32,000 nt of DNA, taken from Nostoc sp. PCC 7120 = FACHB-418. Lineage in GTDB: Bacteria; Cyanobacteriota; Cyanobacteriia; Cyanobacteriales; Nostocaceae. Both the position numbers and the translations under genes were made by a program. This document shows, piece after piece, positions 4,768 to 27,415 of this stretch (positions are counted from its first letter, which is position 1; each line of letters starts with the position of its first letter). Location: assembly GCF_000009705.1 (NCBI RefSeq), contig NC_003272.1:2250001-2282000 (forward strand), given 5' to 3'. Below the pieces are notes generated by a model that worked only from the letters and a program-made list of their open reading frames with translations, did no database searches and had not been told where the DNA came from.

Positions 4768-7700
4768 TTATCCCTGCCACTCCTTCAACTTTTTCTGTGC
4801 ATACTCCCGCACTTGCTCATCTGGATCATTCTCTGCTCTGTCGCGCAACAGTGGTAAAGTTTTTTCATGCTGGGGATACTGTTTGATAATTATCTCAAGA
4901 GCAACGCGCCGGGGATTTGGGCTAAAACTATCATGGCTACCTTCAAAGGGGTCATTAACAACACAGTTGTAGTATGTTTCCAAAAGTTCAGGCTGGGATT
5001 TAAAAGCTTTAGCTAATTCTTGCACTACCGACCATCTCACAATTGAACTATTATCCGCAGTGGTAAGTTGCTGGAGAATAGTTTTGGTATTGGGGTCATC
5101 TTTGTGAGCCTTGACTAATTCTTGTACGGCTGTCCGTCGCACATCCGGGTCATTATCCGTAGTAACGAGTTGTTGGATGATGGTTTTGGTACAGATGTCA
5201 TCTTTATAAGCCTTAGCTAATTCTTGGACTACGGTCTGTCGCACATCCGAATCATCATCTGTAATGGCACATTCTTTAAGGAAGGTTTTGATAGTGAGGT
5301 CATATTTGTAAGCCTTAACTAACTCTTGTACGGCCGTTCGTCGCACATCCGAATCATTATCGACAATGGCACGTTTATGAATAAAAATTTTGATAGTGGA
5401 GTCATCCTTGTAAGCCTTAACTAACTCTTGTATTGCTGTTCTTCGCACATCCCAATGTTTATCCATAGTAGTAAGTTCTTGGAGAAAAATTTTGGTTGTA
5501 GAGTCATCTTTATAAGCTTTGACCAATTCTTGTAATGCTGTTTTTCGCACATCCCAACTATCATCTCTGATAGCAAATTCCTTGAGAAAAGTTTTGGTCG
5601 TGGGTTCATTTTTATAAGCTTTGACTAATTCTTGTATCGCTATCCGCCGTACTTCCCAACGCTTATCTACAGTGGCACATTTTTGGAGAATAGTTTTAGT
5701 TTCGAGGTCATCTTTGTAAGTTTGTGCTAATTTTTGTACAGCTATTATTCGTACAAAATCATCATCTGCATTGGTACGTTCTTGGAGAATTATTTTAGTG
5801 GTGGATTTATCTTTGCAAGTCTGATTTAATTCTTGTGCTGCTGTTCTTCGTACATCCAAATCATCATCCATAGTGGCACGTTCTTGGAGAAATGCTTTAG
5901 TAGCGGGGTCATATCTGTAAGCATTAATTAATTCTTGTACTGCTGTCATTCTCACATCCCAACTATCATCTACCGTAGCAATTTGTTGGAGAAAACTTTT
6001 AGTCGTGGGGTTATTTTTGTAAGTCCGAGCTAATTCTTGTATTGCTATTCGTCGCTCCACTGAGTAATTATTTGCAGTGACAATTTCTTGGAGAAATGTT
6101 TGAGTTGTAGGATCATCTTTGTAAGCCTGGGTGAATTCTTGTATTGCTTTCTGCCTTACATCTGAGTCATCATTCACTGTAGCAAGTTGTTGGAGAAAAG
6201 TTTTAGTTTCGGTTGAATCTTGCCAAGCTGCTGCAATTTCTCTAACTGCTTGAGTGCGGATATCTCGAATAAACTTAATTTCTTCGGAATCGTATTCAGG
6301 GCGATAATAATACCAGATATCATATTTAGTTAAGTTTTTTAGGTAGTTCAGTAATTTATCAGAAATGGACACTATCAATGAACGATTTCTCACTTCGACA
6401 AGACACTTAGCGGCTAAAAACATATTGATGAATTTATTTTCTTCACCATCCTGCACCATTAAATAATCAATAATTTCACCAACAAACTTGGCATCAATCA
6501 TACCAGCAATTAATAGTAAGACTTCATGCCAAGTTTCATCACGCCAGTGTTTGCCAAAAACTTCCGTTTTTAAATCCTCAATTGAAAGACTGCGTTCCTT
6601 CTCAAACCGCCAGACAAACTCCCAAGCACAGAAATATTCCAAAAAAGTGCGATGCACAAAAGCATAGTAATCAGCACCGAGGAAACATAACATAAAGTTA
6701 CGAGTTCTCAGTTGTTCTCTCATTACCCTCGCAGCTTGTCTGGGTTGATTAATTTCTGTAGTTCTTAAATATTCAGTCAGAATATTTTCTAATTGATCAG
6801 CACTAATCACATTACCAGCTAAACCCGCACCACTTGTTTGCATACTATAGGCAACTTGACGCAGCATAGCTTGCTTATCTTTGTAATCAATAGTCTTATG
6901 ATCTAGTCGTTTATCTTCAACTAAAGCCCGTTCCACATCCCACTGATGCAACAATACCCGCGATGCTTGTTCATAAAGTGAGTTTCTATCTCTAGGTAAT
7001 TCTTGATTACGATTAAGAATTGCCATCATCGTCAACAACAGAGGATTTCCTGCTAATTCTGTAATGGCTTTTGAATTTTCAATTCCTCTTAGCAGCCTTT
7101 CCCATTTTCTAAGTTTATCTGCTTCATCACTGAAAGTTAACTCATGCCAACGGTGAATAAAATCTTGAATTTGTGCTGAGTTCAAATCTTGCAACATAAA
7201 ATGGCGAAACTCAGCATCACGAAGCCGTTGCGGTTTATAACCAATTACGCGAGAAGTAACAATCACCTGCACATTAGGATACTCATTAGTAAAGCGATGA
7301 ATATCTGTAATTACATCCTCTCGCTTACCAGGGTCAAATACTTCATCTAACCCATCAAACATGACTAAAGCGTTACCAGCTTGTAGCTGTTGATGTAATT
7401 GATGTTGATTGAGATGTTCAATTGCACCGCTACATTTATCCAAAAATTCCAAAAAGTTATGACACTCATTCCCATCCCGCCGCCGCATATAAGTACGTAA
7501 CTCAATTAACAAAGGAATTGGTTGTGAGATCACATTATCTAATGGTGACTCAGACCAATTCAAAGCTAAATACTGCAACAGCGTAGACTTACCAGAACCA
7601 GGATCACCCAAAATTACAACATATTTATAACTTTGCTTATTATTAACAACATCTAATACTGAAAGTAGTGGCTGTTCTAAATAAACCCTTGTGAGTTTTT

Positions 7701-8541
7701 GCAATTCCTCGGCAGCAATTTCTGCCTCTATCTGGTCAGTTTCTCGCAGCCTTCTAAAGTGTTCCTTCGGCAGTTCATGAACTCGCGGCAAAACTTGATG
7801 CACTTCCCGCACATCTTGAGCTATGAACATTCGCCATAACTTGAGTTCGTTATAAGCGTAGCCAGTCGTATCTAAACTGTCTAATTTTAAATTGCCGTAA
7901 CGCTCACTAATTGCTTCTTGATAGCGTTTTAAATCGAATTGAGAAATAATGCCAGCTATGGCTTGTGTGTTTTCTTTAATTTGTTCTATATTCTGAGAAT
8001 CAAGAATTGCCCTCATTTCGGGAAATTCTCGAATAATCTTCTTCACTTTTGATAAATATTCTCTGCCTATCTTCTTCCATTTAAAATCTTCTGATAAGGA
8101 ACTAGAGGCGACCAATTGATACCAAATTTCTTGTAATCTCTTAGTATTGATAGCCTCACATTCATAGTCGAAAGCATCACCCAAAATTTGTTTAACTTCT
8201 GGCTGCTTTAAAAACTGCTGTAACGGCTGGGTATAATTTTCAATTTCTTCTTTTGATAGTTCACCGTATTCCAAATCTTGCTGCATGAGTTGCAGAAATT
8301 CTGCAAACGCCATTACTTCAGCTTTCTGTAGTGGTTCTCGCTGGAATGGCGCAGTCACAGCATTATGAATAATATTTCTGAAAAAATCTTTAGCGTAATC
8401 TTTGACTAACTCTTCTAAAAATTCCTTGCTGATGATAGTCTTAACCAAAAATCCAAATGCTTTTCCTGCAATCCAAGTACCAAACCATTCAATTAGCATA
8501 CCCGTGTCTGTTGATATTCTGAATACGAGTATATACACCAA
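4768..8541 (-). CDS. STAND NTPase: helical N-terminal domain + NACHT + about 12 HEAT-like repeats
   Basis: Walker A GDPGSGKST (nt ~7590..7615), Walker B LVMFDGLDE, sensor VIVTSR and GNPLLLTMM. The C-terminal third consists of ~35-aa repeats (xFLQxxAxxDxDxDVRRTAVQELVKAYKDDxTTK). The start is more likely the ATG at 8499 (MLIEWFG...). Confidence 0.9.
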   Translation of the reverse strand: MVYILVFRISTDTGMLIEWFGTWIAGKAFGFLVKTIISKEFLEELVKDYAKDFFRNIIHNAVTAPFQREPLQKAEVMAFAEFLQLMQQDLEYGELSKEEIENYTQPLQQFLKQPEVKQILGDAFDYECEAINTKRLQEIWYQLVASSSLSEDFKWKKIGREYLSKVKKIIREFPEMRAILDSQNIEQIKENTQAIAGIISQFDLKRYQEAISERYGNLKLDSLDTTGYAYNELKLWRMFIAQDVREVHQVLPRVHELPKEHFRRLRETDQIEAEIAAEELQKLTRVYLEQPLLSVLDVVNNKQSYKYVVILGDPGSGKSTLLQYLALNWSESPLDNVISQPIPLLIELRTYMRRRDGNECHNFLEFLDKCSGAIEHLNQHQLHQQLQAGNALVMFDGLDEVFDPGKREDVITDIHRFTNEYPNVQVIVTSRVIGYKPQRLRDAEFRHFMLQDLNSAQIQDFIHRWHELTFSDEADKLRKWERLLRGIENSKAITELAGNPLLLTMMAILNRNQELPRDRNSLYEQASRVLLHQWDVERALVEDKRLDHKTIDYKDKQAMLRQVAYSMQTSGAGLAGNVISADQLENILTEYLRTTEINQPRQAARVMREQLRTRNFMLCFLGADYYAFVHRTFLEYFCAWEFVWRFEKERSLSIEDLKTEVFGKHWRDETWHEVLLLIAGMIDAKFVGEIIDYLMVQDGEENKFINMFLAAKCLVEVRNRSLIVSISDKLLNYLKNLTKYDIWYYYRPEYDSEEIKFIRDIRTQAVREIAAAWQDSTETKTFLQQLATVNDDSDVRQKAIQEFTQAYKDDPTTQTFLQEIVTANNYSVERRIAIQELARTYKNNPTTKSFLQQIATVDDSWDVRMTAVQELINAYRYDPATKAFLQERATMDDDLDVRRTAAQELNQTCKDKSTTKIILQERTNADDDFVRIIAVQKLAQTYKDDLETKTILQKCATVDKRWEVRRIAIQELVKAYKNEPTTKTFLKEFAIRDDSWDVRKTALQELVKAYKDDSTTKIFLQELTTMDKHWDVRRTAIQELVKAYKDDSTIKIFIHKRAIVDNDSDVRRTAVQELVKAYKYDLTIKTFLKECAITDDDSDVRQTVVQELAKAYKDDICTKTIIQQLVTTDNDPDVRRTAVQELVKAHKDDPNTKTILQQLTTADNSSIVRWSVVQELAKAFKSQPELLETYYNCVVNDPFEGSHDSFSPNPRRVALEIIIKQYPQHEKTLPLLRDRAENDPDEQVREYAQKKLKEWQG
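4990..6204 (-). repeat. About 12 diverged ~105-bp coding repeats (HEAT/PBS-lyase-like) inside the NACHT protein
   Basis: A periodic DVR..A.QEL..AYK motif recurs every ~35 aa. The repeats are clearly diverged at the DNA level, unlike the array at 24281..26233. Confidence 0.8.
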
Positions 8542-8595: not shown

Positions 8596-9315
8596 TCAAA
8601 TCAAATTATCAGGATCTATTCCCAAGGCGCGTAATCTTTCCGCCAACTGTTGGGCGCGTTGTGCTTCCTGCTGGGCGCGTTGTTGGGCAAGTTGCGCTTG
8701 TTGTTGCGCCTGTTTAATCTGTTCTTCTGGTGTGGGATAACGCTTCCCTGCTTCGTCGTACCAATACATCCATTCCCGCGTTACACCGCAATAATTTCCC
8801 CTTTCGCAACCAATTCCTAAGCCAATTTCTGGTAGCCAAATTGGGTTTCCTTCTTGCAATTCATATTTGCCGTTCACTAATTTATGTACTTCTAAATGGG
8901 GTTTGCGACGGCGGCGAGAAGAATAAATGACGTAATAAAGTACACCCAAAGCGGCATAGTCATTTAATTTATCACTGTATTCTTTGCGGTAGTTTTGAGA
9001 AACAACTTCTAACACCAATATTGGCGTAACTTGTTCATCCCACAGCACATAACTGGGACGCAGTTCTTCATCATAAAATCTTTCTACCCCAAGGCTCAAA
9101 AACCCATCTGGAACAATTGGTGGTTGATCGGGGTGAAAATAAACACCCATATCTACACCAAAAAACCAGTCCATCCGTTCTGCCCAGAGTAGCAGCAGAA
9201 TTGCTTTTAGTAATCCTGGGATAAGTTCTTGCAGTTCGTTATCCACTGGTGTTTCGTCAGAGTCTGGTAGTTCGTCGGCTGAAGGTAAGTACCTTGGCAA
9301 GTTGAAGTTTAGCAT
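8596..9315 (-). CDS. Uma2-family (DUF820) PD-(D/E)xK-type endonuclease
   Basis: Carries LPSADELPDSDETPVDNE and a core ending ILVLEVVS.. The Q/A-rich coiled tail ending LRALGIDPDNL is typical of cyanobacterial Uma2 proteins. The ATG at 9315 is preferred over the TTG at 9330. Confidence 0.8.
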   Translation of the reverse strand: MLNFNLPRYLPSADELPDSDETPVDNELQELIPGLLKAILLLLWAERMDWFFGVDMGVYFHPDQPPIVPDGFLSLGVERFYDEELRPSYVLWDEQVTPILVLEVVSQNYRKEYSDKLNDYAALGVLYYVIYSSRRRRKPHLEVHKLVNGKYELQEGNPIWLPEIGLGIGCERGNYCGVTREWMYWYDEAGKRYPTPEEQIKQAQQQAQLAQQRAQQEAQRAQQLAERLRALGIDPDNLI

Positions 9316-9375
9316 GACGGGTTGCCCCAAAATCTTCTACACCAGTGTTTTCATCAGTATTATAGCGGTTTCTTT

Positions 9376-9468
9376 GGTGTAGGGGTGTGGCTTCACCCTC
9401 ACACCCTTACACCCTTACACCCACATACCCCTATACCCCTATACCCCCACACCTACACTCTGATATCC
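9376..9468. repeat. Short tandem/inverted C-rich repeats (cccttaca / cccctata units)
   Basis: ggtgtaggggtgtgg...cacccttacacccttacacccacatacccctatacccctataccccc. It belongs to the same motif family as the core of the 2395..2540 element and lies in the divergent Uma2/serA intergenic region. Confidence 0.6.
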
Positions 9469-11254: not shown

Positions 11255-12175
11255 ATGGCAAACACTTGGTGGGAACTACAGATTTCATGTGAATCGGCGC
11301 TAGAAGACTCTGTTTCTTGGCGACTGGAAGATTTTGGTTGTCGTGGTACAGCTAGCGAAAGTAAGGGTGATTCTTGCTTAGTTAAGGGTTATTTGCCGAT
11401 ATTTCAAGCACAGTTATTAGATTTAGCGGCGCTGGGGCTATGGTTGCAACAAGATGCCCTGTGTATAGGATTATCTTCTCCTACCTTGACTTGGCAGCTA
11501 ATTGATGAGGAAGATTGGGCGAGTAGCTGGAAACAATATTGGCATCCCCAGGAAATAGGCGATCGCTTTCTCATCAACCCCGCATGGCTACCATCACCGG
11601 AAAACTCCGATAGGTTAATCATCCGCCTCGACCCTGGCGTAGCATTTGGTACAGGAAACCATGCTACTACTCAATTATGTCTAGAATCCCTAGAAATGAG
11701 ATTGAGTGAGGTTCCCAAATCGTTTATCAGTAAAGGAGGGAACCAAGAACCTGTCATAATTGCGGATATTGGCTGCGGTTCTGGTATCCTTTCGATTGGG
11801 GCAGTTTTATTAGGCGCACAGAAAGTTTATGCAGTAGATACCGACCCTTTAGCTGTGCAGTCAACCTTCAGCAATCGCGCCCTCAACGAAGTAAACCCAG
11901 AACGCCTAGTACCAGCAGAAGGTAGCGTAGATATCTTAAAGAAACTGATTGAACGCCCGGTAGATGGTATTGTTTGCAATATTTTAGCTGATGTCATTAT
12001 TCAATTAGTCCCAGAAATCAGCGAGATATCTAAACCTAGCACTTGGGCTATTTTTAGCGGGATTTTAGTTGAACAATCTACCTCTGTTGCTGAGGCTTTA
12101 GAAAAACACGGTTGGGTAGTCGCTACTATGTGGAAACGCAAAGAATGGTGCTGCTTAAATGTCAGGCGTACTTAA
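11255..12175 (+). CDS. prmA: Ribosomal protein L11 methyltransferase
   Basis: Contains the PrmA motif [15 protein letters not shown] and the SAM-binding motif [10 protein letters not shown]. Confidence 0.88.
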
Positions 12176-15507: not shown

Positions 15508-17249
<1,742 letters not shown>

Positions 17250-17308
17250 GAAGAGGCAGGGAGCAGGGGGCAGGGAGCAAGGGGGAAGAAGTGACTGCAA
17301 GATTTTCG

Positions 17309-17343
17309 CCCAGTACCCAATCCCCAATCCCCAGTACCCAATA
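17309..17343. repeat. STRR-type heptamer repeats (CCCAGTA/CCCAATC)
   Basis: cccagtacccaatccccaatccccagtacccaat, preceded by a G-rich cagggagcagggggcagggagc block. Confidence 0.7.
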
Positions 17344-17353
17344 GCCAAACATT

Positions 17354-20413: not shown

Positions 20414-20478
20414 CTGAGTTCGACACTTCCCATTCTTGAGGCAGAGGGGCAGAGGGCAGGGGAGGCAGGGGGAGAAGT

Positions 20479-20552
20479 CCCCAATCCCCAATCCCCAGTC
20501 CCCAATCCCCAGTCCCCAGTCCCCAATCCCCAATCCCCAGTCCCCAATCCCC
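20479..20552. repeat. STRR1-type heptamer array, 10 full units of CCCCAAT/CCCCAGT
   Basis: A perfect 7-bp period runs from 20479 to 20548 with a partial 11th unit. It is preceded by a G-rich ggcagaggggcagagggcaggggaggcaggggg block. Confidence 0.9.
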
Positions 20553-20590
20553 AAAAATTTTGAATTGATTCATCGCCCAGACTACTGAGT

Positions 20591-21639: not shown

Positions 21640-22143
21640 CTACTTCCAAATAATAGGAGCGATCGCCGCCATGAACAAGAGAAAAGCTATTTCTAAAACG
21701 TAGCTGATAAAGACACTGCGATTTAAAAGACCATCCCAGAGATAGCCTTGGCGCTTGGGGTTATTGGTGCGCTTGTGGGTATGCGACCAACTACTGTAAA
21801 TCCCAGGGGTTTTGAAACTATATGTATTAGTGAGAATATACTCAATTTCGTAAACGCGGGGATAGAAACCGCGCTGAAAGTGTTTCCATTGACTTTCGAG
21901 AATCCAGAAAAATAGGGGAATCGTGCAACCGATGAGAGCGATCGCTGTAGCGTTGGGTCTTTGCTGTAACATCAATGTTAAAACACCACCAGTCCCAGTA
22001 ATTCCCAGTGCTTTGATTACCCAAATCTGCTTGTTGTAGTCTTCGATAGTGTTTTGCAGAAAAAAGTATTCCTCCTTGAGCAAGTTTAATTCAAAATCAC
22101 TCAGGGGTTGAGACTGGGTTTCAGTTGGTAATGGGTAAGACAT
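21640..22143 (-). CDS. Hypothetical small membrane protein (3 predicted TM helices)
   Basis: 167 aa. A ~35-aa polar/amphipathic N-terminus is followed by TM1 IWVIKALGITGTGGVLTLML, TM2 AIALIGCTIPLFFWILE and a C-terminal TM VFISYVLEIAFLLFMAAIAPIIW. I recognise no family. Confidence 0.55.
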   Translation of the reverse strand: MSYPLPTETQSQPLSDFELNLLKEEYFFLQNTIEDYNKQIWVIKALGITGTGGVLTLMLQQRPNATAIALIGCTIPLFFWILESQWKHFQRGFYPRVYEIEYILTNTYSFKTPGIYSSWSHTHKRTNNPKRQGYLWDGLLNRSVFISYVLEIAFLLFMAAIAPIIWK

Positions 22144-22263: not shown

Positions 22264-22350
22264 AGACCCCTCCCCCAACCCCTCCCCGACGCGGAGAGGG
22301 GAGCTAATTCTCCCCCTTCCCTCGTAGGGAAGGGGGTTGGGGGGTTAGGT
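22264..22350 (+). repeat. 87-bp double-hairpin dispersed repeat, intergenic copy
   Basis: The two hairpins are cccctcccc-gacgc-ggagagggg and cccccttccct-cgt-agggaaggggg. It is about 90 percent identical to 23081..23167 in the same orientation. Confidence 0.75.
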
Positions 22351-22392
22351 TTGTGATTACTGAATCGATATTCTAGTGGCTTAAGATGTTCA

Positions 22393-22623
22393 AATACTCG
22401 CCCACGAGATAAAAATACTCGCCCACGAGACAAAAATACTCGCTCACGAGATAAAAATACTCACCCACGAGATAAAAATACTCACTCACGAGATTCTAAT
22501 ACTCACTCACGAGATTCTAATACTCACTCACGAGACAAAAATACTCGCCCACGAGACAAAAATACTCGCCCACGAGATAAAAATACTCGTGAACGAGATG
22601 CTGATACTCGTGAACGAGAATTA
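22393..22623 (+). repeat. Tandem array of 11 x 21 bp (consensus AATACTCGCCCACGAGATAAA)
   Basis: There are exactly 11 contiguous 21-bp units with no spacers. Each holds a small CTCG-N4-CGAG palindrome, and 7 of 11 carry an A5-6 tract. The array ends 148 bp upstream of the ATG at 22772. Confidence 0.95.
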
Positions 22624-22771: not shown

Positions 22772-25700
22772 ATGATCAACTGGAATGACTACCTAGAATC
22801 ACTCTGCAAAGATTATGCCCAATGGTGGAATGCTTACACGTTGACGGATGTAGTAGGACAGCAGCGAATTGAGCAGAAGCGATCGCCCCTACTGTTAGAT
22901 TTTATAGTGCAGACGGTACAATCTGCCAAGGAAGAAAGGAGCGCCAGCCAGGAGCAAGTTGAGCGTTTAGACGTGCTAGCAGGGTTGCGAAAGTATGCTC
23001 AAGAACACGTTTTGCTAGTAGGGCGACCAGGTTCAGGGAAATCGACAGCTTTATTGCGGTTATTGCTAGAAGAAGCGGAGAGACCCCTCCCCCAACCCCT
23101 CCCCGACGCGGAGAGGGGAGTATTAGCTCCCCCTTCCCTTGCAGGGAAGGGGGTCGGGGGGTTAGGTCAAATCCCCATCCTAGTAGAGTTGCGCTATTAC
23201 CAAACCTCAATCCTAGACTTGATTCGGGATTTCTTGAAACGCCATTGCCTACTACTAGACACTGCAACCATAGAACAACTGCTGTTTGACGGGCAATTTT
23301 TGCTGCTGGTAGATGGTATCAACGAATTACCCTCAGAGAAAGCGCGACAAGATTTATATAAATTCCGGCAAGACAACCAAAAAACCACGCCGATGATATT
23401 CACCACGCGGGATTTAGGCGTGGGGGGTGATTTGGGCATTACCAAGAAGCTGGAAATGCAACCCCTGACAGCAGAACAAATGCAGCAATTTGTCCGCGCC
23501 TATTTGCCAGCACAGGGTGAACAGATGTTGCAGAACTTAGGCGACAGGTTGCGGGAGTTTGGGGAAACACCGTTGCTGCTGTTTATGCTGTGTTTATTGT
23601 TTGTTGAAACAGGAGACATCCCGCCGAACTTGGGTTTGCTGTTTCGCGAGTTGACCCAACGTTATAAGAACGAGTTGAAGCCAAATGTCCCAGTTAAAGG
23701 TGTGTCACGGGATCATTGGTCATGGTTATTACAACATTTGGCGTTCAACATGACCAAAGGGGATAAGCTGACAGAATTGAATGTTGCCATACTCAAGTCA
23801 AAAGCAGAGGAAGTTTTAACGCAGCTTTTGAAAGATGAAGGATTTAATCCACCCCGTGACCAAGCATCAGAATCGTTGAAAGATTTACTCAACCATGATT
23901 TAATTCAACTGGCTGCAAATGACCAAATTGAATTTCGCCACCAACTAATTCAGGAATATTACACCGCCGAATGTTTGCTCAAGCTGTTACCAAGCCTCAG
24001 TGATGACTCTCTCCAGCGAGAGTATTTAAATTATTTAAAATGGACTGAACCCCTAAAATTGATGCTGGAATTGGTGGATGATAGGGCGCTGGCGGTGCGA
24101 GTGGTGAACTTAGCCTTAAAGGTAGATTACCAGTTAGGCGCAAAGTTAGCAGGTGCAGCAAAGCCAGAGTTGCAGCAGCAGACAGTTGATTTAATACCTG
24201 GGTTAAAAATTCCTTTATTATTCAAAATCTGCCTTCTAGGTTTAACTAAATCTGAAAAAGCAATTTCTCATCTCAATCCATTACTAGAAGATGAAAACTC
24301 CTCTGTGCGTGATAGTGCGGCATCTGCCCTGGGAGAAATCAAATCAGAGGCGGCGATTCCTGGGCTAATTAAATTACTAGAACATGAAAACTCCTCTGTG
24401 CGTTATAGTGCGGCATCTGCCCTGGGAGAAATCAAATCAGAGGCGGCGATTCCTGGGCTAATTAATTTACTAGAACATGAAAACTTCGATGTGCGTTATC
24501 GTGCGGCATCTGCCCTGGGAGAAATCAAATCAGAGGCGGCGATTCCTGGGCTAATTAATTTACTAGAACATGAAAACTCCTCTGTGCGTTATCGTGCGGC
24601 ATCTGCCCTGGGACAAATCAAATCAGAGCAGGCTATTCTAGGGCTAATTAAATTACTAGAACATGAAAACTCCTCTGTGCGTTATCGTGCGGCATCTGCC
24701 CTGGGACAAATCAAATCAGAGCAGGCTATTCTAGGGCTAATTAAATTACTAGAACATGAAAACTCCGATGTGCGTTATCGTGCGGCATCTGCCCTGGGAG
24801 AAATCAAATCAGAGCAGGCTATTCCTGGGCTAATTAATTTACTAGAACATGAAAACTTCGATGTGCGTTATAGTGCGGCATCTGCCCTGGGAGAAATCAA
24901 ATCAGAGCAGGCTATTCCTGGGCTAATTAATTTACTAGAACATGAAAACTTCGATGTGCGTTATAGTGCGGCATCTGCCCTGGGAGAAATCAAATCAGAG
25001 GCGGCGATTCCTGGGCTAATTAATTTACTAGAACATGAAAACTTCGATGTGCGTTATAGTGCGGCATCTGCCCTGGGAGAAATCAAATCAGAGGCGGCGA
25101 TTCCTGGGCTAATTAATTTACTAGAACATGAAAACTTCGATGTGCGTGATAGTGCGGCATCTGCCCTGGGAGAAATCAAATCAGAGGCGGCGATTCCTGG
25201 GCTAATTAATTTACTAGAACATGAAAACTTCGATGTGCGTTATAGTGCGGCATCTGCCCTGGGAGAAATCAAATCAGAGGCGGCGATTCCTGGGCTAATT
25301 AATTTACTAGAAGATGAAAACTCCGATGTGCGTTATAGTGCGGCATCTGCCCTGGGAGAAATCAAATCAGAGGCGGCGATTCCTGGGCTAATTAATTTAC
25401 TAGAAGATGAAAACTCCCCTGTGCGTAGAAGGGCGGCATCTGCCCTGGGACAAATCAAATCAGAGGCGGCGATTCCTGGGCTAATTAATTTACTAGAAGA
25501 TGAAAACTCCCCTGTGCGTAGAAGGGCGGCATCTGCCCTGGGACAAATCAAATCAGAGGCGGCGATTCCTGGGCTAATTAATTTACTAGAAGATGAAAAC
25601 TCCTCTGTGCGTTATAGTGCGGCATCTTCCCTGGGACAAATCAAATCAGAGCAGGCTATTCTAGGGCTAATTAAATTACTAGAAGATGAAAACTCCTCTG

Positions 25701-27415
25701 TGCGTAGAAGGGCGGCATCTGCCCTGGGAGAAATCAAATCAGAGCAGGCTATTCCAGGGCTAATTAAATTACTAGAACATGAAGACTCCGATGTGCGTTA
25801 TCGTGCGGCATCTGCCCTGGGAGAAATCAAATCAGAGCAGGCTATTCCAGGGCTAATTAAATTACTAGAAGATGAAGACTCATTTGTGCGTTATCGTGCG
25901 GCATCTGCCCTGGGAGAAATCAAATCAGAGCAGGCTATTCTAGGGCTAATTAATTTACTAGAAGATGAAGACTCCTCTGTGCGTTATCGTGCGGCATCTA
26001 CCCTGGGACAAATCAAATCAGAGCAGGCTATTCCAGGGCTAATTAATTTACTAGAAGATGAAAAATCCTCTGTGCGTGATAGTGCGGCATCTGCCCTGGG
26101 AGAAATCAAATCAGAGCAGGCTATTCCAGGGCTAATTAATTTACTAGAAGATGAAAACTCCTCTGTGCGTGATAGTGCGGCATCTGCCCTGGGAGAAATC
26201 AAATCAGAGCAGGCTATTCCTATGCTCATGAATCGGTTAGAAAATGAAGAGTTTGTGTCAGCAAATAATGGGAATACTTTGTATTCTGCACTAGAAGCAC
26301 TGGAAGCAATACAAGAAAACTGTCAATACTATAGATGTCTCACAGAACAGAAACCACAACTATATCTTCCCCCATCCCAGCCAAGTAAAACATCCCTAAT
26401 GTACATCCTCCACCTCTCAGACCTGCACTTCGGCACACCTGACGAAGCCAACAAGTGGTCTAACCAACTAGCGATGGACTTGAAACAAGAACTCCAGATT
26501 CCTCACCTTGATGCCCTCATTCTCTCCGGCGACATCGCCAACAAATCAACCCCCGACGAATACGCAGCCGCCCAAAAATTCCTTGATGAACTTCGCCAAG
26601 ACTTCTCCCTCAAATTTGAGCAAATTATCATCGCCCCTGGTAATCATGACCTCAATTGGCAAATCTCAGAGGAAGAAGGTTACATCCCAACACTTCGCAA
26701 AAAATATCAAGAGTCAATGGATGAGAGTTGTGTAATTGATGATGGTGGTGCATATATTGCAGTTGTAGATCCAGAAAACCACAAAAGACGCTTTGAACAC
26801 TTCAGCAACTTCTACCAAGCCATTAAAAACCAACCCTATCCCCTAGAGTATGAGAAGCAATACACCCTAGACCATTTCCCTAACCAAAACCTACTCATTC
26901 TAGGCTTAAACTCCGCTTGGCAATTGGATCATCATTACAAATCCCGTGCCAGCATTAACATAAATGCACTCACCAACGCCCTCACAGACATTCGCCGCAA
27001 TCAATATTATCAAAACTGCATCAAAATAGCAGTATGGCATCATCCCCTAGATAGCGCCTGGGAAGACCGCATCAAAGACCAAAGCTTCATGGAACAGTTA
27101 GCCGTCGCAGGTTTCCGCTTCTTCCTCCACGGACACGTCCACAAAGCCGAAACTAGCCTCTACCGTTATGATATGAGTGCTAACGGTCGAAAACTTGACC
27201 GCATCTGTGCAGGTACTTTCGGCGCACCCACCCGCGAACTTAACCCCGGTTATCCCTGGCAATACAACCTGCTGAAATTTGCAGACAATAAACTAACCGT
27301 CTACACCCGCCGCCGCGAAGAACTCAACGGCCCATGGAAACCCGATGCACGCTGGCTAATGGGTGCAGGGCAAAATCCATTACCCTACTACGAAGTAATG
27401 ATGGATTACACGTAG
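22772..27415 (+). CDS. STAND NTPase: NACHT + 21 near-identical HEAT repeats + C-terminal calcineurin-like metallophosphoesterase
   Basis: NACHT motifs: Walker A GRPGSGKST, Walker B FLLLVDGINE, MIFTTR and GETPLLLFML. The array has 21 units of LLE(H/D)ENxxVRxxAASALG(E/Q)IKSE(A/Q)AI(P/L)GLI(N/K). The C-terminal ~340 aa carry all five MPE motifs: LSDLHFG, SGDIANK, PGNHD, VWHHP and HGHVH. Confidence 0.9.
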   Translation: MINWNDYLESLCKDYAQWWNAYTLTDVVGQQRIEQKRSPLLLDFIVQTVQSAKEERSASQEQVERLDVLAGLRKYAQEHVLLVGRPGSGKSTALLRLLLEEAERPLPQPLPDAERGVLAPPSLAGKGVGGLGQIPILVELRYYQTSILDLIRDFLKRHCLLLDTATIEQLLFDGQFLLLVDGINELPSEKARQDLYKFRQDNQKTTPMIFTTRDLGVGGDLGITKKLEMQPLTAEQMQQFVRAYLPAQGEQMLQNLGDRLREFGETPLLLFMLCLLFVETGDIPPNLGLLFRELTQRYKNELKPNVPVKGVSRDHWSWLLQHLAFNMTKGDKLTELNVAILKSKAEEVLTQLLKDEGFNPPRDQASESLKDLLNHDLIQLAANDQIEFRHQLIQEYYTAECLLKLLPSLSDDSLQREYLNYLKWTEPLKLMLELVDDRALAVRVVNLALKVDYQLGAKLAGAAKPELQQQTVDLIPGLKIPLLFKICLLGLTKSEKAISHLNPLLEDENSSVRDSAASALGEIKSEAAIPGLIKLLEHENSSVRYSAASALGEIKSEAAIPGLINLLEHENFDVRYRAASALGEIKSEAAIPGLINLLEHENSSVRYRAASALGQIKSEQAILGLIKLLEHENSSVRYRAASALGQIKSEQAILGLIKLLEHENSDVRYRAASALGEIKSEQAIPGLINLLEHENFDVRYSAASALGEIKSEQAIPGLINLLEHENFDVRYSAASALGEIKSEAAIPGLINLLEHENFDVRYSAASALGEIKSEAAIPGLINLLEHENFDVRDSAASALGEIKSEAAIPGLINLLEHENFDVRYSAASALGEIKSEAAIPGLINLLEDENSDVRYSAASALGEIKSEAAIPGLINLLEDENSPVRRRAASALGQIKSEAAIPGLINLLEDENSPVRRRAASALGQIKSEAAIPGLINLLEDENSSVRYSAASSLGQIKSEQAILGLIKLLEDENSSVRRRAASALGEIKSEQAIPGLIKLLEHEDSDVRYRAASALGEIKSEQAIPGLIKLLEDEDSFVRYRAASALGEIKSEQAILGLINLLEDEDSSVRYRAASTLGQIKSEQAIPGLINLLEDEKSSVRDSAASALGEIKSEQAIPGLINLLEDENSSVRDSAASALGEIKSEQAIPMLMNRLENEEFVSANNGNTLYSALEALEAIQENCQYYRCLTEQKPQLYLPPSQPSKTSLMYILHLSDLHFGTPDEANKWSNQLAMDLKQELQIPHLDALILSGDIANKSTPDEYAAAQKFLDELRQDFSLKFEQIIIAPGNHDLNWQISEEEGYIPTLRKKYQESMDESCVIDDGGAYIAVVDPENHKRRFEHFSNFYQAIKNQPYPLEYEKQYTLDHFPNQNLLILGLNSAWQLDHHYKSRASININALTNALTDIRRNQYYQNCIKIAVWHHPLDSAWEDRIKDQSFMEQLAVAGFRFFLHGHVHKAETSLYRYDMSANGRKLDRICAGTFGAPTRELNPGYPWQYNLLKFADNKLTVYTRRREELNGPWKPDARWLMGAGQNPLPYYEVMMDYT
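23081..23167 (+). mobile_element. 87-bp double-hairpin repeat inserted in frame within the NACHT domain
   Basis: It encodes RPLPQPLPDAERGVLAPPSLAGKGVGGLG (29 codons, no stop) between the Walker A helix (..LLLEEAE) and the next strand (QIPILVELR). The paralogue at 4768..8541 has only about 10 residues at this point. Confidence 0.75.
24281..26233 (+). repeat. 21 x 93-bp near-perfect tandem coding repeats (HEAT array)
   Basis: The period is exactly 93 bp, and unit n starts at 24281+93(n-1). Units 4 and 5 (24560..24745) and units 13 and 14 (25397..25582) are identical neighbouring pairs. A degenerate capping unit follows. Confidence 0.95.

What the first reader, a model, noticed from the sequence alone, without database searches (positions are those of the whole stretch)
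24281..26233. 21 near-identical 93-bp HEAT units with variation confined to a few codon positions
The repeats are nearly identical at the DNA level, and some neighbouring units are 100 percent identical (units 4=5, 13=14; units 8, 9 and 11 encode the same peptide). Almost all differences fall at the same positions of the 31-aa unit: pos 4 H/D, pos 6 N/D/K, pos 7 S/F, pos 8 S/D/P/F, pos 11 Y/D/R, pos 12 S/R, pos 19 E/Q, pos 24 A/Q, pos 27 P/L and pos 31 N/K. The 5' and 3' variant blocks occur in shuffled combinations, which suggests unequal crossover or gene conversion. High internal repeat conservation with hypervariable surface positions is the pattern described for fungal NLR WD40/ANK/TPR arrays, where it is interpreted as rapid generation of new recognition specificities. 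Seeing it in a bacterial NACHT protein is notable. The paralogue at 4768..8541 has old, diverged repeats, so this array was homogenised or expanded recently. It is also a likely site of assembly collapse or copy-number polymorphism.
Basis: partly seen in the sequence, partly recalled or inferred. Interest (0 to 1): 0.72.

Follow-up and report, generated by a model that had tools for sequence, protein, structure and literature searches.

The report
Self-shuffling HEAT sensor of Anabaena NLR
Gene alr1903 of the model cyanobacterium Anabaena PCC 7120 holds 21 nearly identical 31-residue HEAT repeats that differ mainly at residues lining the repeat's binding groove; this is probably the fast-evolving target-recognition arm of an NLR-type immune protein, a pattern known from fungal and some bacterial NLRs and shown here for this repeat type.

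Summary
Positions 24281-26233 hold 21 in-frame 93-bp units (91% mean nucleotide identity, 17 distinct units). The array is not an artefact: the same 1547-aa protein is found in the 2001 PCC 7120 genome (BAB73602.1, alr1903) and in one recent complete assembly, and a second (FACHB-595) carries the same 21 units. The protein reads NACHT, then 21 HEAT repeats, then a metallophosphoesterase. The repeats are 55-60% identical to engineered alphaRep binders. Variable positions 7, 8, 11, 12 and 19 are five of the six groove positions that alphaRep libraries randomise. In 11 independently homogenised arrays of this cyanobacterial family, these positions give pN/pS of 2-7. Positions 24, 27 and 31 instead mark two old unit lineages being mixed. 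Four-gamete tests, excess similarity of adjacent units and a fully reshuffled array in a syntenic sister genome support unequal crossover or gene conversion. Precedents exist: internally conserved WD/TPR repeats in bacterial NLRs, HEAT repeats in Podospora NLRs, and C-terminal effectors in bacterial NACHT proteins. This is therefore a new member of a known kind, in a genetically tractable organism. A conserved three-helix membrane partner gene is a new lead. Immune function is inferred, not tested.

The parts
22772..27415 (+). Whole gene alr1903 (1547 aa): short conserved N-terminus, NACHT module, 21 HEAT repeats, metallophosphoesterase.
   Evidence: ORF list and translation. Pfam hits NACHT, HEAT_PBS x21 and Metallophos. 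Exact match to BAB73602.1 / WP_010996067.1. The locus tag follows from its adjacency to cyaB2 = all1904.
22772..24187 (+). N-terminal conserved segment plus the NACHT nucleotide-binding and oligomerisation module (P-loop domain with helical and winged-helix domains).
   Evidence: Pfam NACHT scores 27.2 bits against a cut-off of 26.7. Invariant G84-P-G-S-G-K-S-T92, D181-G-x-N-E185 and T211-T-R213 across 40 homologues. AlphaFold2 model has pLDDT 80, and the best PDB fold matches are NLRC4, NOD2, NLRP3 and NAIP at E 6e-11 to 1e-8.
23021..23047 (+). Walker A motif (P-loop), GRPGSGKST.
   Evidence: Read from the translation; invariant in the alignment.
23084..23169 (+). GC-rich palindromic small repeat element translated inside the NACHT ORF (about aa 105-133). 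It forms a disordered loop between Walker A and the next strand.
   Evidence: 89% identical to the intergenic copy at 22265-22350. pLDDT is below 50 for residues 108-130. This loop carries translated palindromic elements of varying type and length across the family.
24188..24280 (+). Diverged leading repeat (N-terminal cap of the array).
   Evidence: The in-register translation DLIPGLKIPLLFKICLLGLTKSEKAISHLNP keeps the repeat outline only.
24281..26233 (+). The finding: 21 units of 93 bp (31 aa), alphaRep-type HEAT repeats. This is the proposed ligand-binding solenoid.
26141..26233 (+). Terminal unit 21, ending in the variant ...IPMLMN. It is orthologous to the terminal unit of the sister genome, so the array edge escapes shuffling.
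   Evidence: The same IPMLMN ending occurs in L011 unit 25, with 5 nucleotide differences.
26234..26398 (+). C-terminal cap helices and a low-confidence linker.
   Evidence: The AlphaFold2 model of the tail has helices at residues 5-37, then pLDDT below 50 at 33-47.
26399..27412 (+). Calcineurin-like metallophosphoesterase effector domain. All metal and catalytic motifs are intact.
   Evidence: Pfam Metallophos covers aa 1210-1458. Invariant or nearly invariant D63-x-H65, G99-D100, G136-N-H-D139, H269-H270 and G300-H-x-H303 in tail numbering. Model pLDDT is 83, with fold matches to the YydB model, GpdQ and the cyclic-nucleotide phosphodiesterase Rv0805. Sub-threshold hits to the anti-phage phosphoesterase families DS9_1 and DS8.
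21640..22143 (-). Divergently transcribed 167-aa protein with three predicted membrane helices. Candidate partner of the metallophosphoesterase-type genes.
   Evidence: Highly conserved (alignment A5). 257 homologues, all named ones cyanobacterial and all unnamed; no Pfam family. Found within 1.3 kb upstream in 10 and at about 4 kb in 1 of the 14 metallophosphoesterase-tailed loci, against 3 of 34 others, all three degenerate; Fisher p = 4.6e-6, not corrected for phylogeny.
22392..22620 (.). Tandem 21-bp repeat AAAAATACTCGCCCACGAGAT (9-11 copies), each with the palindrome CTCG-N4-CGAG, 150-380 bp upstream of the start codon. Possibly regulatory.
   Evidence: TRF row 22392-22589 and the sequence itself. 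About 70% conserved upstream of the L003 and L048 genes.

Best explanation
alr1903 encodes an NLR-like STAND protein. Its 21-unit alphaRep-type HEAT solenoid is the ligand-recognition arm, its NACHT module is the nucleotide-driven switch and oligomeriser, and its C-terminal metallophosphoesterase is the output. Shown: the domain order, intact catalytic motifs, and the restriction of amino-acid variation to one face of helix B (positions 7, 8, 11, 12, 15, 19, plus loop position 4). By close homology to alphaRep crystal structures, that face is the concave binding surface. Also shown: units are kept nearly identical and reshuffled by recombination between them. Exact repeats of 152-164 nt, mosaic units, excess similarity of neighbouring units and conserved array edges are the classical signature of unequal crossover or gene conversion. 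Meanwhile, differences at the groove positions persist or accumulate faster than synonymous differences. Each reshuffle or copy-number change therefore makes a new combination of groove residues, in effect a natural alphaRep library. Inferred: a foreign protein (most plausibly from a phage) or an altered self protein binds in the groove. This releases the NACHT module, which oligomerises and activates the phosphodiesterase domains. Those domains cleave a nucleotide-type phosphodiester, and the outcome is growth arrest or death of the infected cell in the filament, possibly through the conserved three-helix membrane protein encoded next door.
For: Architecture and folds. The repeats match alphaRep at E 7e-86 with about 55-60% identity, and the alignment puts reader position n at alphaRep position n+11. 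alphaRep positions 18, 19, 22, 23, 26 and 30 are the randomised ones, and alphaRep proteins bind through the concave face that carries them. Family-wide entropy peaks at positions 8, 11, 12, 19, 15, 4 and 7 in 10 other homogenised arrays (Spearman 0.59 against the window, p 5e-4). The variability moment at 100 degrees for helix B gives p = 2e-4. pN at the six a-priori positions divided by pS over all codons is 4.7 in the window and 2.0-6.9 in all 11 arrays, against 0.5-1.0 elsewhere. Amino-acid identity is lower than nucleotide identity. Recombination. Turnover: the syntenic sister genome L011 has flanking genes at dS 0.10-0.17 and 95-97% identity, yet 25 units with no collinear unit orthology and different residues. 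NACHT and tail dN are 5-20 times those of neighbouring genes, with dN/dS 0.46-0.51. Immune character of the family: the same NACHT-HEAT core carries interchangeable effectors. C-terminal ones are metallophosphoesterase 18, caspase 13, TIR, CHAT, PNP, DUF4062 and EAD8. N-terminal ones are trypsin-like peptidase and EAD10. The phosphoesterase module also occurs fused to EAD1 and TIR elsewhere. The literature places HEAT sensors, calcineurin-like effectors and C-terminal effectors among antiphage bacterial NACHT proteins.
Against: No experiment links alr1903 or any close relative to defence. No PADLOC or NCBIfam defence model is matched at family level: EruA 17.8 bits against a cut-off of 1000, DS9_1 92 bits against 420. 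pN/pS among recombining paralogous units is not a formal test of positive selection. 'Other' positions give ratios near 1 in some arrays, so part of the signal may be relaxed constraint. In the window itself position 15 is invariant, and the helix-B moment alone is only p = 0.07. The array is unchanged in three assemblies of the PCC 7120 lineage, so turnover is slow on laboratory time scales. The sister-genome array comes from a short-read assembly, so its unit count and order may be imperfect, although its residue content cannot be an artefact. No coordinates were available to measure solvent exposure directly. The ligand and the enzyme substrate are unknown.
Confidence: 0.6

Rival explanations
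1. The array is a recent neutral amplification in a scaffold or signalling protein, for example a NACHT-regulated cyclic-nucleotide phosphodiesterase working with the neighbouring adenylate cyclase CyaB2. Surface positions vary only because they are unconstrained. Homogeneity comes from slippage or unequal crossover and has no adaptive role.
For: The tail's closest folds are small-molecule phosphodiesterases (GpdQ, the cAMP/cGMP phosphodiesterase Rv0805), and JGI names homologues CpdA. The gene is convergent with cyaB2 = all1904. pN/pS at the non-a-priori positions is near 1. The array is stable in the laboratory lineage.
Against: The adjacency to cyaB2 is not conserved: no cyclase hit in any of 78 related loci, and synteny with the sister genome ends at the stop codon. 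pN/pS of 2-7 at positions defined in advance from alphaRep is above neutrality in 11 of 11 arrays. The same core swaps between caspase, TIR, CHAT, PNP, DUF4062, trypsin and EAD modules, which is typical of conflict systems and not of a cAMP pathway. dN of the whole gene is 5-20 times that of its neighbours.
Confidence: 0.2
2. The receptor recognises something other than phage: for example strain-specific nonself, plasmids or transposons, or a self protein such as a phycobilisome component, since the repeats are of the phycobilin-lyase HEAT type. It could also be tied to HetR-controlled development.
For: The repeats match HEAT_PBS and the phycocyanobilin lyase 5n3u. alr1903 is reported as 4.9-fold changed in a hetR mutant, and a HetR ChIP region lies inside the gene. 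Fungal NLRs with internally conserved repeats act in allorecognition.
Against: Groove residues turn over quickly between close relatives, which argues against a conserved self ligand. The ChIP region has no HetR motif and overlaps or adjoins repetitive DNA. Filamentous cyanobacteria are not known to fuse cells (general knowledge).
Confidence: 0.15
3. Assembly artefact, or targeted hypermutation by a diversity-generating retroelement.
For: Short-read assemblies of relatives break, collapse or split at this array. Such retroelements do diversify putative sensors in multicellular bacteria (paper listed).
Against: The identical 21-unit array appears in the 2001 Sanger-era chromosome and in two recent complete genomes. 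No reverse transcriptase is among the ORFs of at least 100 aa scanned with Pfam (15 of 27, covering the main coding ORFs of the 32-kb window). The variable columns involve all four bases rather than adenines of a template. Variation consists of reshuffled cassettes.
Confidence: 0.03

Closest known systems
Fungal NLRs with highly internally conserved repeats (Podospora HET-E/HET-D/NWD family; also ANK, TPR and HEAT types)
   Same: A NACHT module is joined to repeats that are 85% or more alike. Variation is limited to a few positions on the binding surface. Units are reshuffled and evolve in concert, copy number changes, and the arrays are hard to assemble.
   Different: This case is bacterial, and the repeat is a 31-residue alphaRep-type HEAT rather than WD40. 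The effector sits after the repeats at the C-terminus. Exchange between paralogues was not tested. No allorecognition biology is known.
Bacterial NACHT antiphage proteins (bNACHT; Kibby et al.) and Avs/STAND sensors
   Same: A central NACHT module with a repeat sensor (HEAT is listed as a sensor type). Calcineurin-like phosphoesterases are listed as effectors. [quoted passage not shown] The family is expanded in multicellular cyanobacteria.
   Different: No tested bNACHT or Avs family is matched at the sequence-model level. Those papers do not describe near-identical repeat arrays or unit shuffling. Function here is untested.
alphaRep artificial binder proteins (Urvoas/Guellouz/Minard)
   Same: The same 31-residue repeat at 55-60% identity. 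Five of the six library-randomised groove positions are the naturally variable ones here. Position 30 shows E/Q/K in both.
   Different: alphaRep proteins are engineered consensus proteins of 2-6 repeats with caps. This is a natural 21-repeat array embedded in a signalling protein. Position 26 is fixed as Ser in the window. Loop position 15 (alphaRep numbering; reader position 4) also varies.
Highly repetitive prokaryotic WD40 proteins and TPR-like proteins with high internal identity (Hu 2017; Marold 2015, as cited by Dyrka 2020)
   Same: Enriched in cyanobacteria, with near-identical units and diversity at predicted interaction hotspots.
   Different: The fold is different (beta-propeller or TPR against HEAT solenoid). 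No link to this NACHT family has been made.
GpdQ / Rv0805 / CpdA class III phosphodiesterases and the B. subtilis YydB phosphoesterase
   Same: The fold and all metal-binding motifs of the C-terminal domain.
   Different: Only 14-16% identity. The domain is fused to a NACHT-HEAT protein, and its substrate is unknown.

Membership tests
NACHT / STAND NLR-like NTPase | P-loop NTPase with Walker A, Walker B and a sensor arginine of the NACHT type, matching the Pfam NACHT model | tested here: met
   GRPGSGKST, D181-G-x-N-E185 and T-T-R213 are invariant in 40 homologues. Pfam NACHT scores 27.2 bits against a cut-off of 26.7, which is marginal. Homologues carry a precomputed PF05729 hit.
NACHT / STAND NLR-like NTPase | Fold of the nucleotide-binding oligomerisation module as in solved NLRs | tested here: met
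   The AlphaFold2 model (pLDDT 80) best matches NLRC4 4kxf, NOD2 5irm, NLRP3 7alv and NAIP, with E 6e-11 to 1e-8 and TM-score 0.5-0.58.
NACHT / STAND NLR-like NTPase | Ligand-induced nucleotide exchange and oligomerisation | not testable with these tools
   Requires biochemistry or cryo-EM.
NLRs with highly internally conserved repeats (fungal type) | Repeat units about 85% or more identical to each other | tested here: met
   91.2% nucleotide and 83.6% amino-acid mean identity; 5 of the 21 units are exact copies of another.
NLRs with highly internally conserved repeats (fungal type) | Variation confined to a few positions that form the binding surface | tested here: met
   Positions 7, 8, 11, 12 and 19 equal alphaRep concave-face positions. 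The family-wide helical variability moment gives p = 2e-4. The mapping is by homology; no coordinates were available. Positions 24, 27 and 31 are a separate helix-A stripe that is not hot across the family.
NLRs with highly internally conserved repeats (fungal type) | Positive diversifying selection at those positions | tested here: inconclusive
   pN(a-priori sites)/pS is 2.0-6.9 in 11 of 11 arrays. However, this is a pairwise count on recombining paralogous units. No recombination-aware site model was run.
NLRs with highly internally conserved repeats (fungal type) | Unit reshuffling and copy-number change between strains | tested here: met
   At least 5 recombination events within the unit. 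The window has 21 units against 25 in syntenic L011, with no collinear unit orthology. Related complete genomes have 17, 17 and 19 units. Caveats: L011 is a short-read assembly, and the PCC 7120 lineage itself is invariant.
NLRs with highly internally conserved repeats (fungal type) | Exchange of repeats between paralogous genes | not tested
   Only 32 kb of this genome was available. The one other NACHT-HEAT gene in the window has a different 34-residue repeat.
PBS-lyase / alphaRep-type HEAT repeat | 31-residue two-helix unit matching HEAT_PBS and the alphaRep consensus | tested here: met
   HEAT_PBS has 21 matched stretches at E 2e-148. alphaRep chains match at E 7e-86 to 1e-27.
Catalogued antiphage systems (PADLOC models; NCBIfam EruA, DS8, DS9_1) | Score above the curated family threshold | tested here: not met
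   EruA scores 17.8 bits against a cut-off of 1000; DS9_1 92 against 420; DS8 78.5 against 790. PADLOC hits cover only the HEAT repeats or the phosphoesterase domain.
Diversity-generating retroelement target | Nearby reverse transcriptase with a template repeat; adenine-specific substitutions | tested here: not met
   No reverse transcriptase among the 15 of the window's 27 ORFs of at least 100 aa that were scanned with Pfam, which cover its main coding ORFs. The substitutions involve all bases.
Calcineurin-like metallophosphoesterase (class III phosphodiesterase-like) | Motifs D-x-H, G-D, G-N-H-D/E, H and G-H-x-H, and the fold | tested here: met
   The motifs are invariant or nearly invariant in 44 sequences. 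Pfam Metallophos E 5e-9. Fold matches GpdQ and Rv0805 at E 1e-11. The substrate cannot be tested with these tools.

The most novel reading that the evidence does not exclude
alr1903 and the divergent three-helix membrane gene form a two-gene cell-suicide immune module of heterocyst-forming cyanobacteria. In this reading, recombination among 93-bp cassettes acts as a germline generator of binding specificities, a natural counterpart of alphaRep libraries and functionally analogous to lamprey VLR or fungal HET-E diversification. The C-terminal phosphodiesterase makes or destroys a nucleotide signal that gates the membrane protein. Its HetR-dependent expression would tie immunity to the developmental state of the filament.
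Probability: 0.2. Interest if true: 0.8.

Novelty: new member of a known kind. Interest (0 to 1): 0.52.

Why it matters
How bacterial NLR-type sensors acquire new specificities is largely unknown. The tested examples have diverged, non-repetitive or slowly evolving sensors. Here, evolution by cassette shuffling at defined groove residues is visible in a gene of Anabaena PCC 7120, an organism with good genetics and known cyanophages. The repeat scaffold also already has dozens of crystal structures and a mature binder-engineering toolkit (alphaRep). That combination makes the hypothesis directly testable: swap or reprogramme groove residues, then look for altered phage or ligand specificity. 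It also gives alphaRep engineers a large natural data set of tolerated 13-25-repeat arrays. On the practical side, alr1903-type genes are systematically broken, collapsed or split in short-read cyanobacterial assemblies and their annotations.

Tried and rejected
1. The gene at 4768..8541 is a different NACHT subfamily: 25% identity, an NNH2 N-terminus and a 102-bp repeat.

2. Membership in a defence system was checked with PADLOC and NCBIfam. Only domain-level or sub-threshold hits were found.

3. A sequence search of the PDB with the NACHT part gave nothing. Fold search was needed instead.

4. Pfam and PHROGs searches on the 167-aa neighbour gave no family. I looked for SLATT-type two-helix effectors. 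Only one member hit S_4TM at E 0.09, and 8xMP hit at 0.04, so no assignment was made.

5. A functional link to the downstream adenylate cyclase cyaB2 was rejected as non-conserved.

6. A diversity-generating retroelement was rejected.

7. An exact 33-mer of the unit was scanned against metagenome contigs and gave 0 hits. A blastn of six units against plasmids gave no match. No extra population data were obtained from either.

8. I considered whether the array is more conserved between species than its flanks, which would suggest transfer of the array. It is not. The consensus units differ at 5 of 93 positions, in line with about 10% divergence of the gene.

9. The apparent copy-number alleles of 20 units, and of 21 with a different composition, in the 90% cluster come from short-read contigs. 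They affect exactly the identical units, so I do not count them as evidence of polymorphism.

10. The exact 25-mer is absent, but the element is present in diverged form.
Full report
OBSERVATION. Tandem Repeats Finder reports one array at 24281-26221 with period 93, 20.9 copies, 95% matches, no indels and score 3035. All units are in frame within ORF 22772-27415 (+), 1547 aa. Units 4=5, 13=14 and 8=9=11 are identical in DNA, and unit 10 differs from 8/9/11 by one base. There are 17 distinct units. Mean pairwise identity is 91.2% for nucleotides and 83.6% for amino acids. Only 24 of 93 columns vary, and they fall in 15 codons. Singletons at position 16 and the terminal-unit changes at 28 and 30 were missed.

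IDENTITY AND AUTHENTICITY. The protein is identical over its full length to BAB73602.1 / WP_010996067.1 of Nostoc (Anabaena) sp. PCC 7120, on a 6,413,771-bp chromosome. It is also identical to XPT18481.1 of Anabaena sp. FACHB-709, the complete chromosome the window comes from. A third complete genome (FACHB-595) has the same 21 units with a shorter tail. The downstream GAF-PAS cyclase is cyaB2 = all1904, and the gene itself is alr1903. An assembly artefact is therefore excluded. In contrast, short-read assemblies of the same lineage yield seven 'partial' proteins and a split ORF in NIES-23. They also yield two full-length variants: one of 20 units, and one of 21 units with six copies of the FD-YS unit. 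Both variants differ exactly where units are identical, so they may be assembly collapses. Among 78 related loci, 13 contigs end inside the array and three carry N-gaps in it.

WHAT THE PROTEIN IS. Pfam finds NACHT (marginal), 21 HEAT_PBS repeats and a C-terminal Metallophos domain. Walker A, Walker B and the TTR sensor motif are invariant across 40 homologues. An AlphaFold2 model of residues 1-503 (pLDDT 80) best matches NLRC4, NOD2, NLRP3 and NAIP. The tail model (pLDDT 83) keeps every metallophosphoesterase motif. It is closest to a YydB model, the glycerophosphodiesterase GpdQ and the cyclic-nucleotide phosphodiesterase Rv0805, with Mre11 further away. The tail also hits anti-phage phosphoesterase models below threshold.

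THE FAMILY. The NACHT part has 768 homologues; every hit that carries a name is cyanobacterial. In the 78 loci recovered from other genomes, the same NACHT-HEAT core carries interchangeable effectors. After the array these are metallophosphoesterase 18, caspase 13, TIR, CHAT, PNP, DUF4062 and EAD8. At the N-terminus they are trypsin-like peptidase and EAD10. This modularity is the hallmark of NLR-like conflict systems. Kibby et al. already list HEAT sensors, calcineurin-like effectors and occasional C-terminal effectors for bacterial NACHT proteins.

WHERE THE VARIATION SITS. The repeat is 55-60% identical to artificial alphaRep proteins (E down to 7e-86). Positions 7, 8, 11, 12, 15 and 19 therefore equal alphaRep 18, 19, 22, 23, 26 and 30, which are the six positions randomised in alphaRep libraries. 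These positions lie on the concave face through which alphaRep proteins bind their targets. At 100 degrees per residue, these six positions span a 140-degree arc of helix B, while the invariant V9, R10, A13, A14, L17, I20 and K21 occupy the opposite arc.

Ten other arrays in the family with at least 82% internal nucleotide identity show the highest entropy at positions 8, 11 and 12 (1.6-1.7 bits). Positions 19, 15, 4 and 7 follow. Their helical variability moment is significant (p = 2e-4). Using the alphaRep positions as an a-priori class, pN divided by pS over all codons is 4.7 in the window. It ranges from 2.0 to 6.9 in all 11 homogenised arrays, against 0.5-1.0 for the remaining codons.

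The window's positions 24, 27 and 31 behave differently. They are biallelic and form an i, i+3, i+7 stripe on helix A. They are not hot in other arrays (0.36-0.67 bits). They separate an 'EAAIPGLIN' type shared with L004 and L006 from an 'EQAIPGLIK' type that is fixed in the sister genome. I read them as two old unit lineages still being mixed, not as recognition residues.

HOW THE ARRAY EVOLVES. Fifty-two of 91 informative site pairs show all four gametes, which requires at least five exchanges inside the 93-bp unit. Adjacent units are more alike than random pairs (0.952 against 0.912, p = 2e-4). Exact repeats reach 152-164 nt at offsets of one or two units, well above the short homology that RecA-dependent exchange needs (general knowledge). 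The diverged leading repeat and the 'IPMLMN' terminal unit are conserved with the sister genome while the interior is not. This is the expected edge effect of unequal crossover.

Nostoc parmelioides FACHB-3921 (L011) is syntenic upstream, with 95-97% identity and flanking genes at dS 0.10-0.17 and dN/dS 0.02-0.16. Its alr1903 orthologue, however, has dN of about 0.09 (dN/dS 0.46-0.51) in the NACHT and tail regions. Its array has 25 units that vary almost only at positions 4, 5, 7, 8, 11, 12 and 19, with no collinear correspondence to the window's units. Within-array pS (0.056) is below the between-genome dS, so units have been duplicated or converted since the split. In the related loci that come from complete genomes or complete-chromosome assemblies, the unit counts are 17, 17 and 19, with internal identity from 0.65 to 0.92. 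In A. azotica FACHB-119 the array region is deleted. Homogenisation is therefore recurrent but not universal. L011 is a short-read assembly, so its exact unit count is provisional.

MECHANISM (best reading, confidence about 0.6). The HEAT solenoid is the ligand-binding arm of an NLR-like switch, and its groove residues define specificity. Recombination among cassettes creates new groove combinations and lengths. Ligand binding would release the NACHT module to oligomerise and activate the phosphodiesterase. The architecture, the motifs, the position of the variation and the recombination are shown. The ligand, the activation step, the substrate and the immune outcome are inferred from the family's effector repertoire and from published work on bacterial NACHT proteins.

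RIVALS. First, neutral amplification in a cAMP-related regulator. The fold resembles cyclic-nucleotide phosphodiesterases, and cyaB2 is adjacent. However, that adjacency is unique to this lineage, and the a-priori sites exceed neutrality. Second, a non-phage ligand or a developmental role. A HetR ChIP region lies inside alr1903, and the transcript is reported 4.9-fold changed in a hetR mutant, but the region lacks a HetR motif and touches repetitive DNA. Third, an assembly artefact or a diversity-generating retroelement; both are excluded.

COMPARISON WITH WHAT IS KNOWN. The phenomenon is the one described for fungal NLRs, including HEAT-type genes in Podospora. Dyrka et al. noted it in passing for WD and TPR repeats of bacterial NLRs, and Hu et al. 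described it for cyanobacterial WD40 proteins. I found no paper describing it for HEAT/alphaRep-type arrays in bacterial NACHT proteins, and none characterising alr1903 functionally — its only mention is the HetR ChIP-seq table noted above. I therefore rate it a new member of a known kind.

A NEW LEAD. The divergent 167-aa gene (21640-22143) encodes a strongly conserved protein with three predicted membrane helices and no known family. It accompanies 11 of 14 metallophosphoesterase-tailed genes: within 1.3 kb in 10 and at about 4 kb in one. Only 3 of 34 other loci have it, and all three are decayed genes (Fisher p = 4.6e-6). It is retained in distant orders where the other flanking genes are not. 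The test is not corrected for phylogeny. It does recall the pairing of nucleotide-processing effectors with small membrane effectors noted by Kaur et al..

Noticed in passing
window 23084-23169 and 22265-22350; also L002-L012 at the equivalent loop: An 86-bp GC-rich palindromic element occurs once in the upstream intergenic region and once translated in frame inside the NACHT domain, between Walker A and the next strand (aa ~105-133, predicted disordered). Across the family this loop holds translated palindromic elements of different types and lengths (42-73 residues between motifs), so it is a tolerated insertion hotspot inside a P-loop domain.
   Followed up: partly
window 22392-22620: Tandem 21-bp repeat AAAAATACTCGCCCACGAGAT, 9-11 copies, each with a CTCG-N4-CGAG palindrome. 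It lies 150-380 bp upstream of the alr1903 start and is weakly conserved upstream of orthologues in L003 and L048. It may be an operator array or a repeat element.
   Followed up: no
window 21640-22143 (-): A conserved 167-aa protein with three membrane helices and no family assignment. It is divergently paired with the metallophosphoesterase-tailed NACHT-HEAT genes across several cyanobacterial orders (11/14 against 3/34 loci).
   Followed up: partly
window 27416 onward; L011 15050-21517: Synteny with the sister genome N. parmelioides ends right after the alr1903 stop codon. The cyaB2 region downstream has no counterpart in any of the 12 close loci, so the gene sits at a rearrangement boundary.
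   Followed up: partly
PCC 7120 coordinates 2274728..2275590 (inside alr1903; roughly window 24650-26870): A published HetR ChIP-seq peak region of twice the usual width and without a HetR motif lies inside alr1903, overlapping or adjoining the array. alr1903 is listed as 4.9-fold changed in a hetR mutant 6 h after nitrogen step-down (PMC4192349). Multi-mapping in the repeats may contribute to the peak.
   Followed up: no
window 4768-8541 (-): A second, unrelated NACHT protein (NNH2 N-terminal domain, 34-residue HEAT-like repeats, 102-bp period, 71% matches) lies 14 kb away. A Uma2-family putative endonuclease gene sits next to it at 8596-9330. This may be a small defence-gene neighbourhood.
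   Followed up: partly
L048 (Anabaena azotica FACHB-119) 11421-11425; P0362 (FACHB-595); L007: Signs of gene decay in relatives. One locus has a deletion that removes the end of the NACHT region, the whole array and the start of the phosphoesterase domain. Another has a tail 75 residues shorter in an otherwise identical allele. A third has lost the tail and keeps only a remnant of the 167-aa gene.
   Followed up: partly
window 20478-20554, 9394-9453, 17168-17348: Short tandem heptamer and nonamer repeats (TCCCCAA x11 and others), resembling the short tandem heptamer repeats I recall as typical of Nostocales genomes. The GGTATGGGT repeats at 17168-17240 fall at the 3' end of the Cpn60-family ORF (15528-17249).
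   Followed up: no
L064 and L065 (Symploca sp. SIO1C2): Two contigs of one metagenome-assembled genome carry arrays with identical statistics (14 units, 0.743 identity). They may be duplicated loci or a duplicated contig.
   Followed up: no
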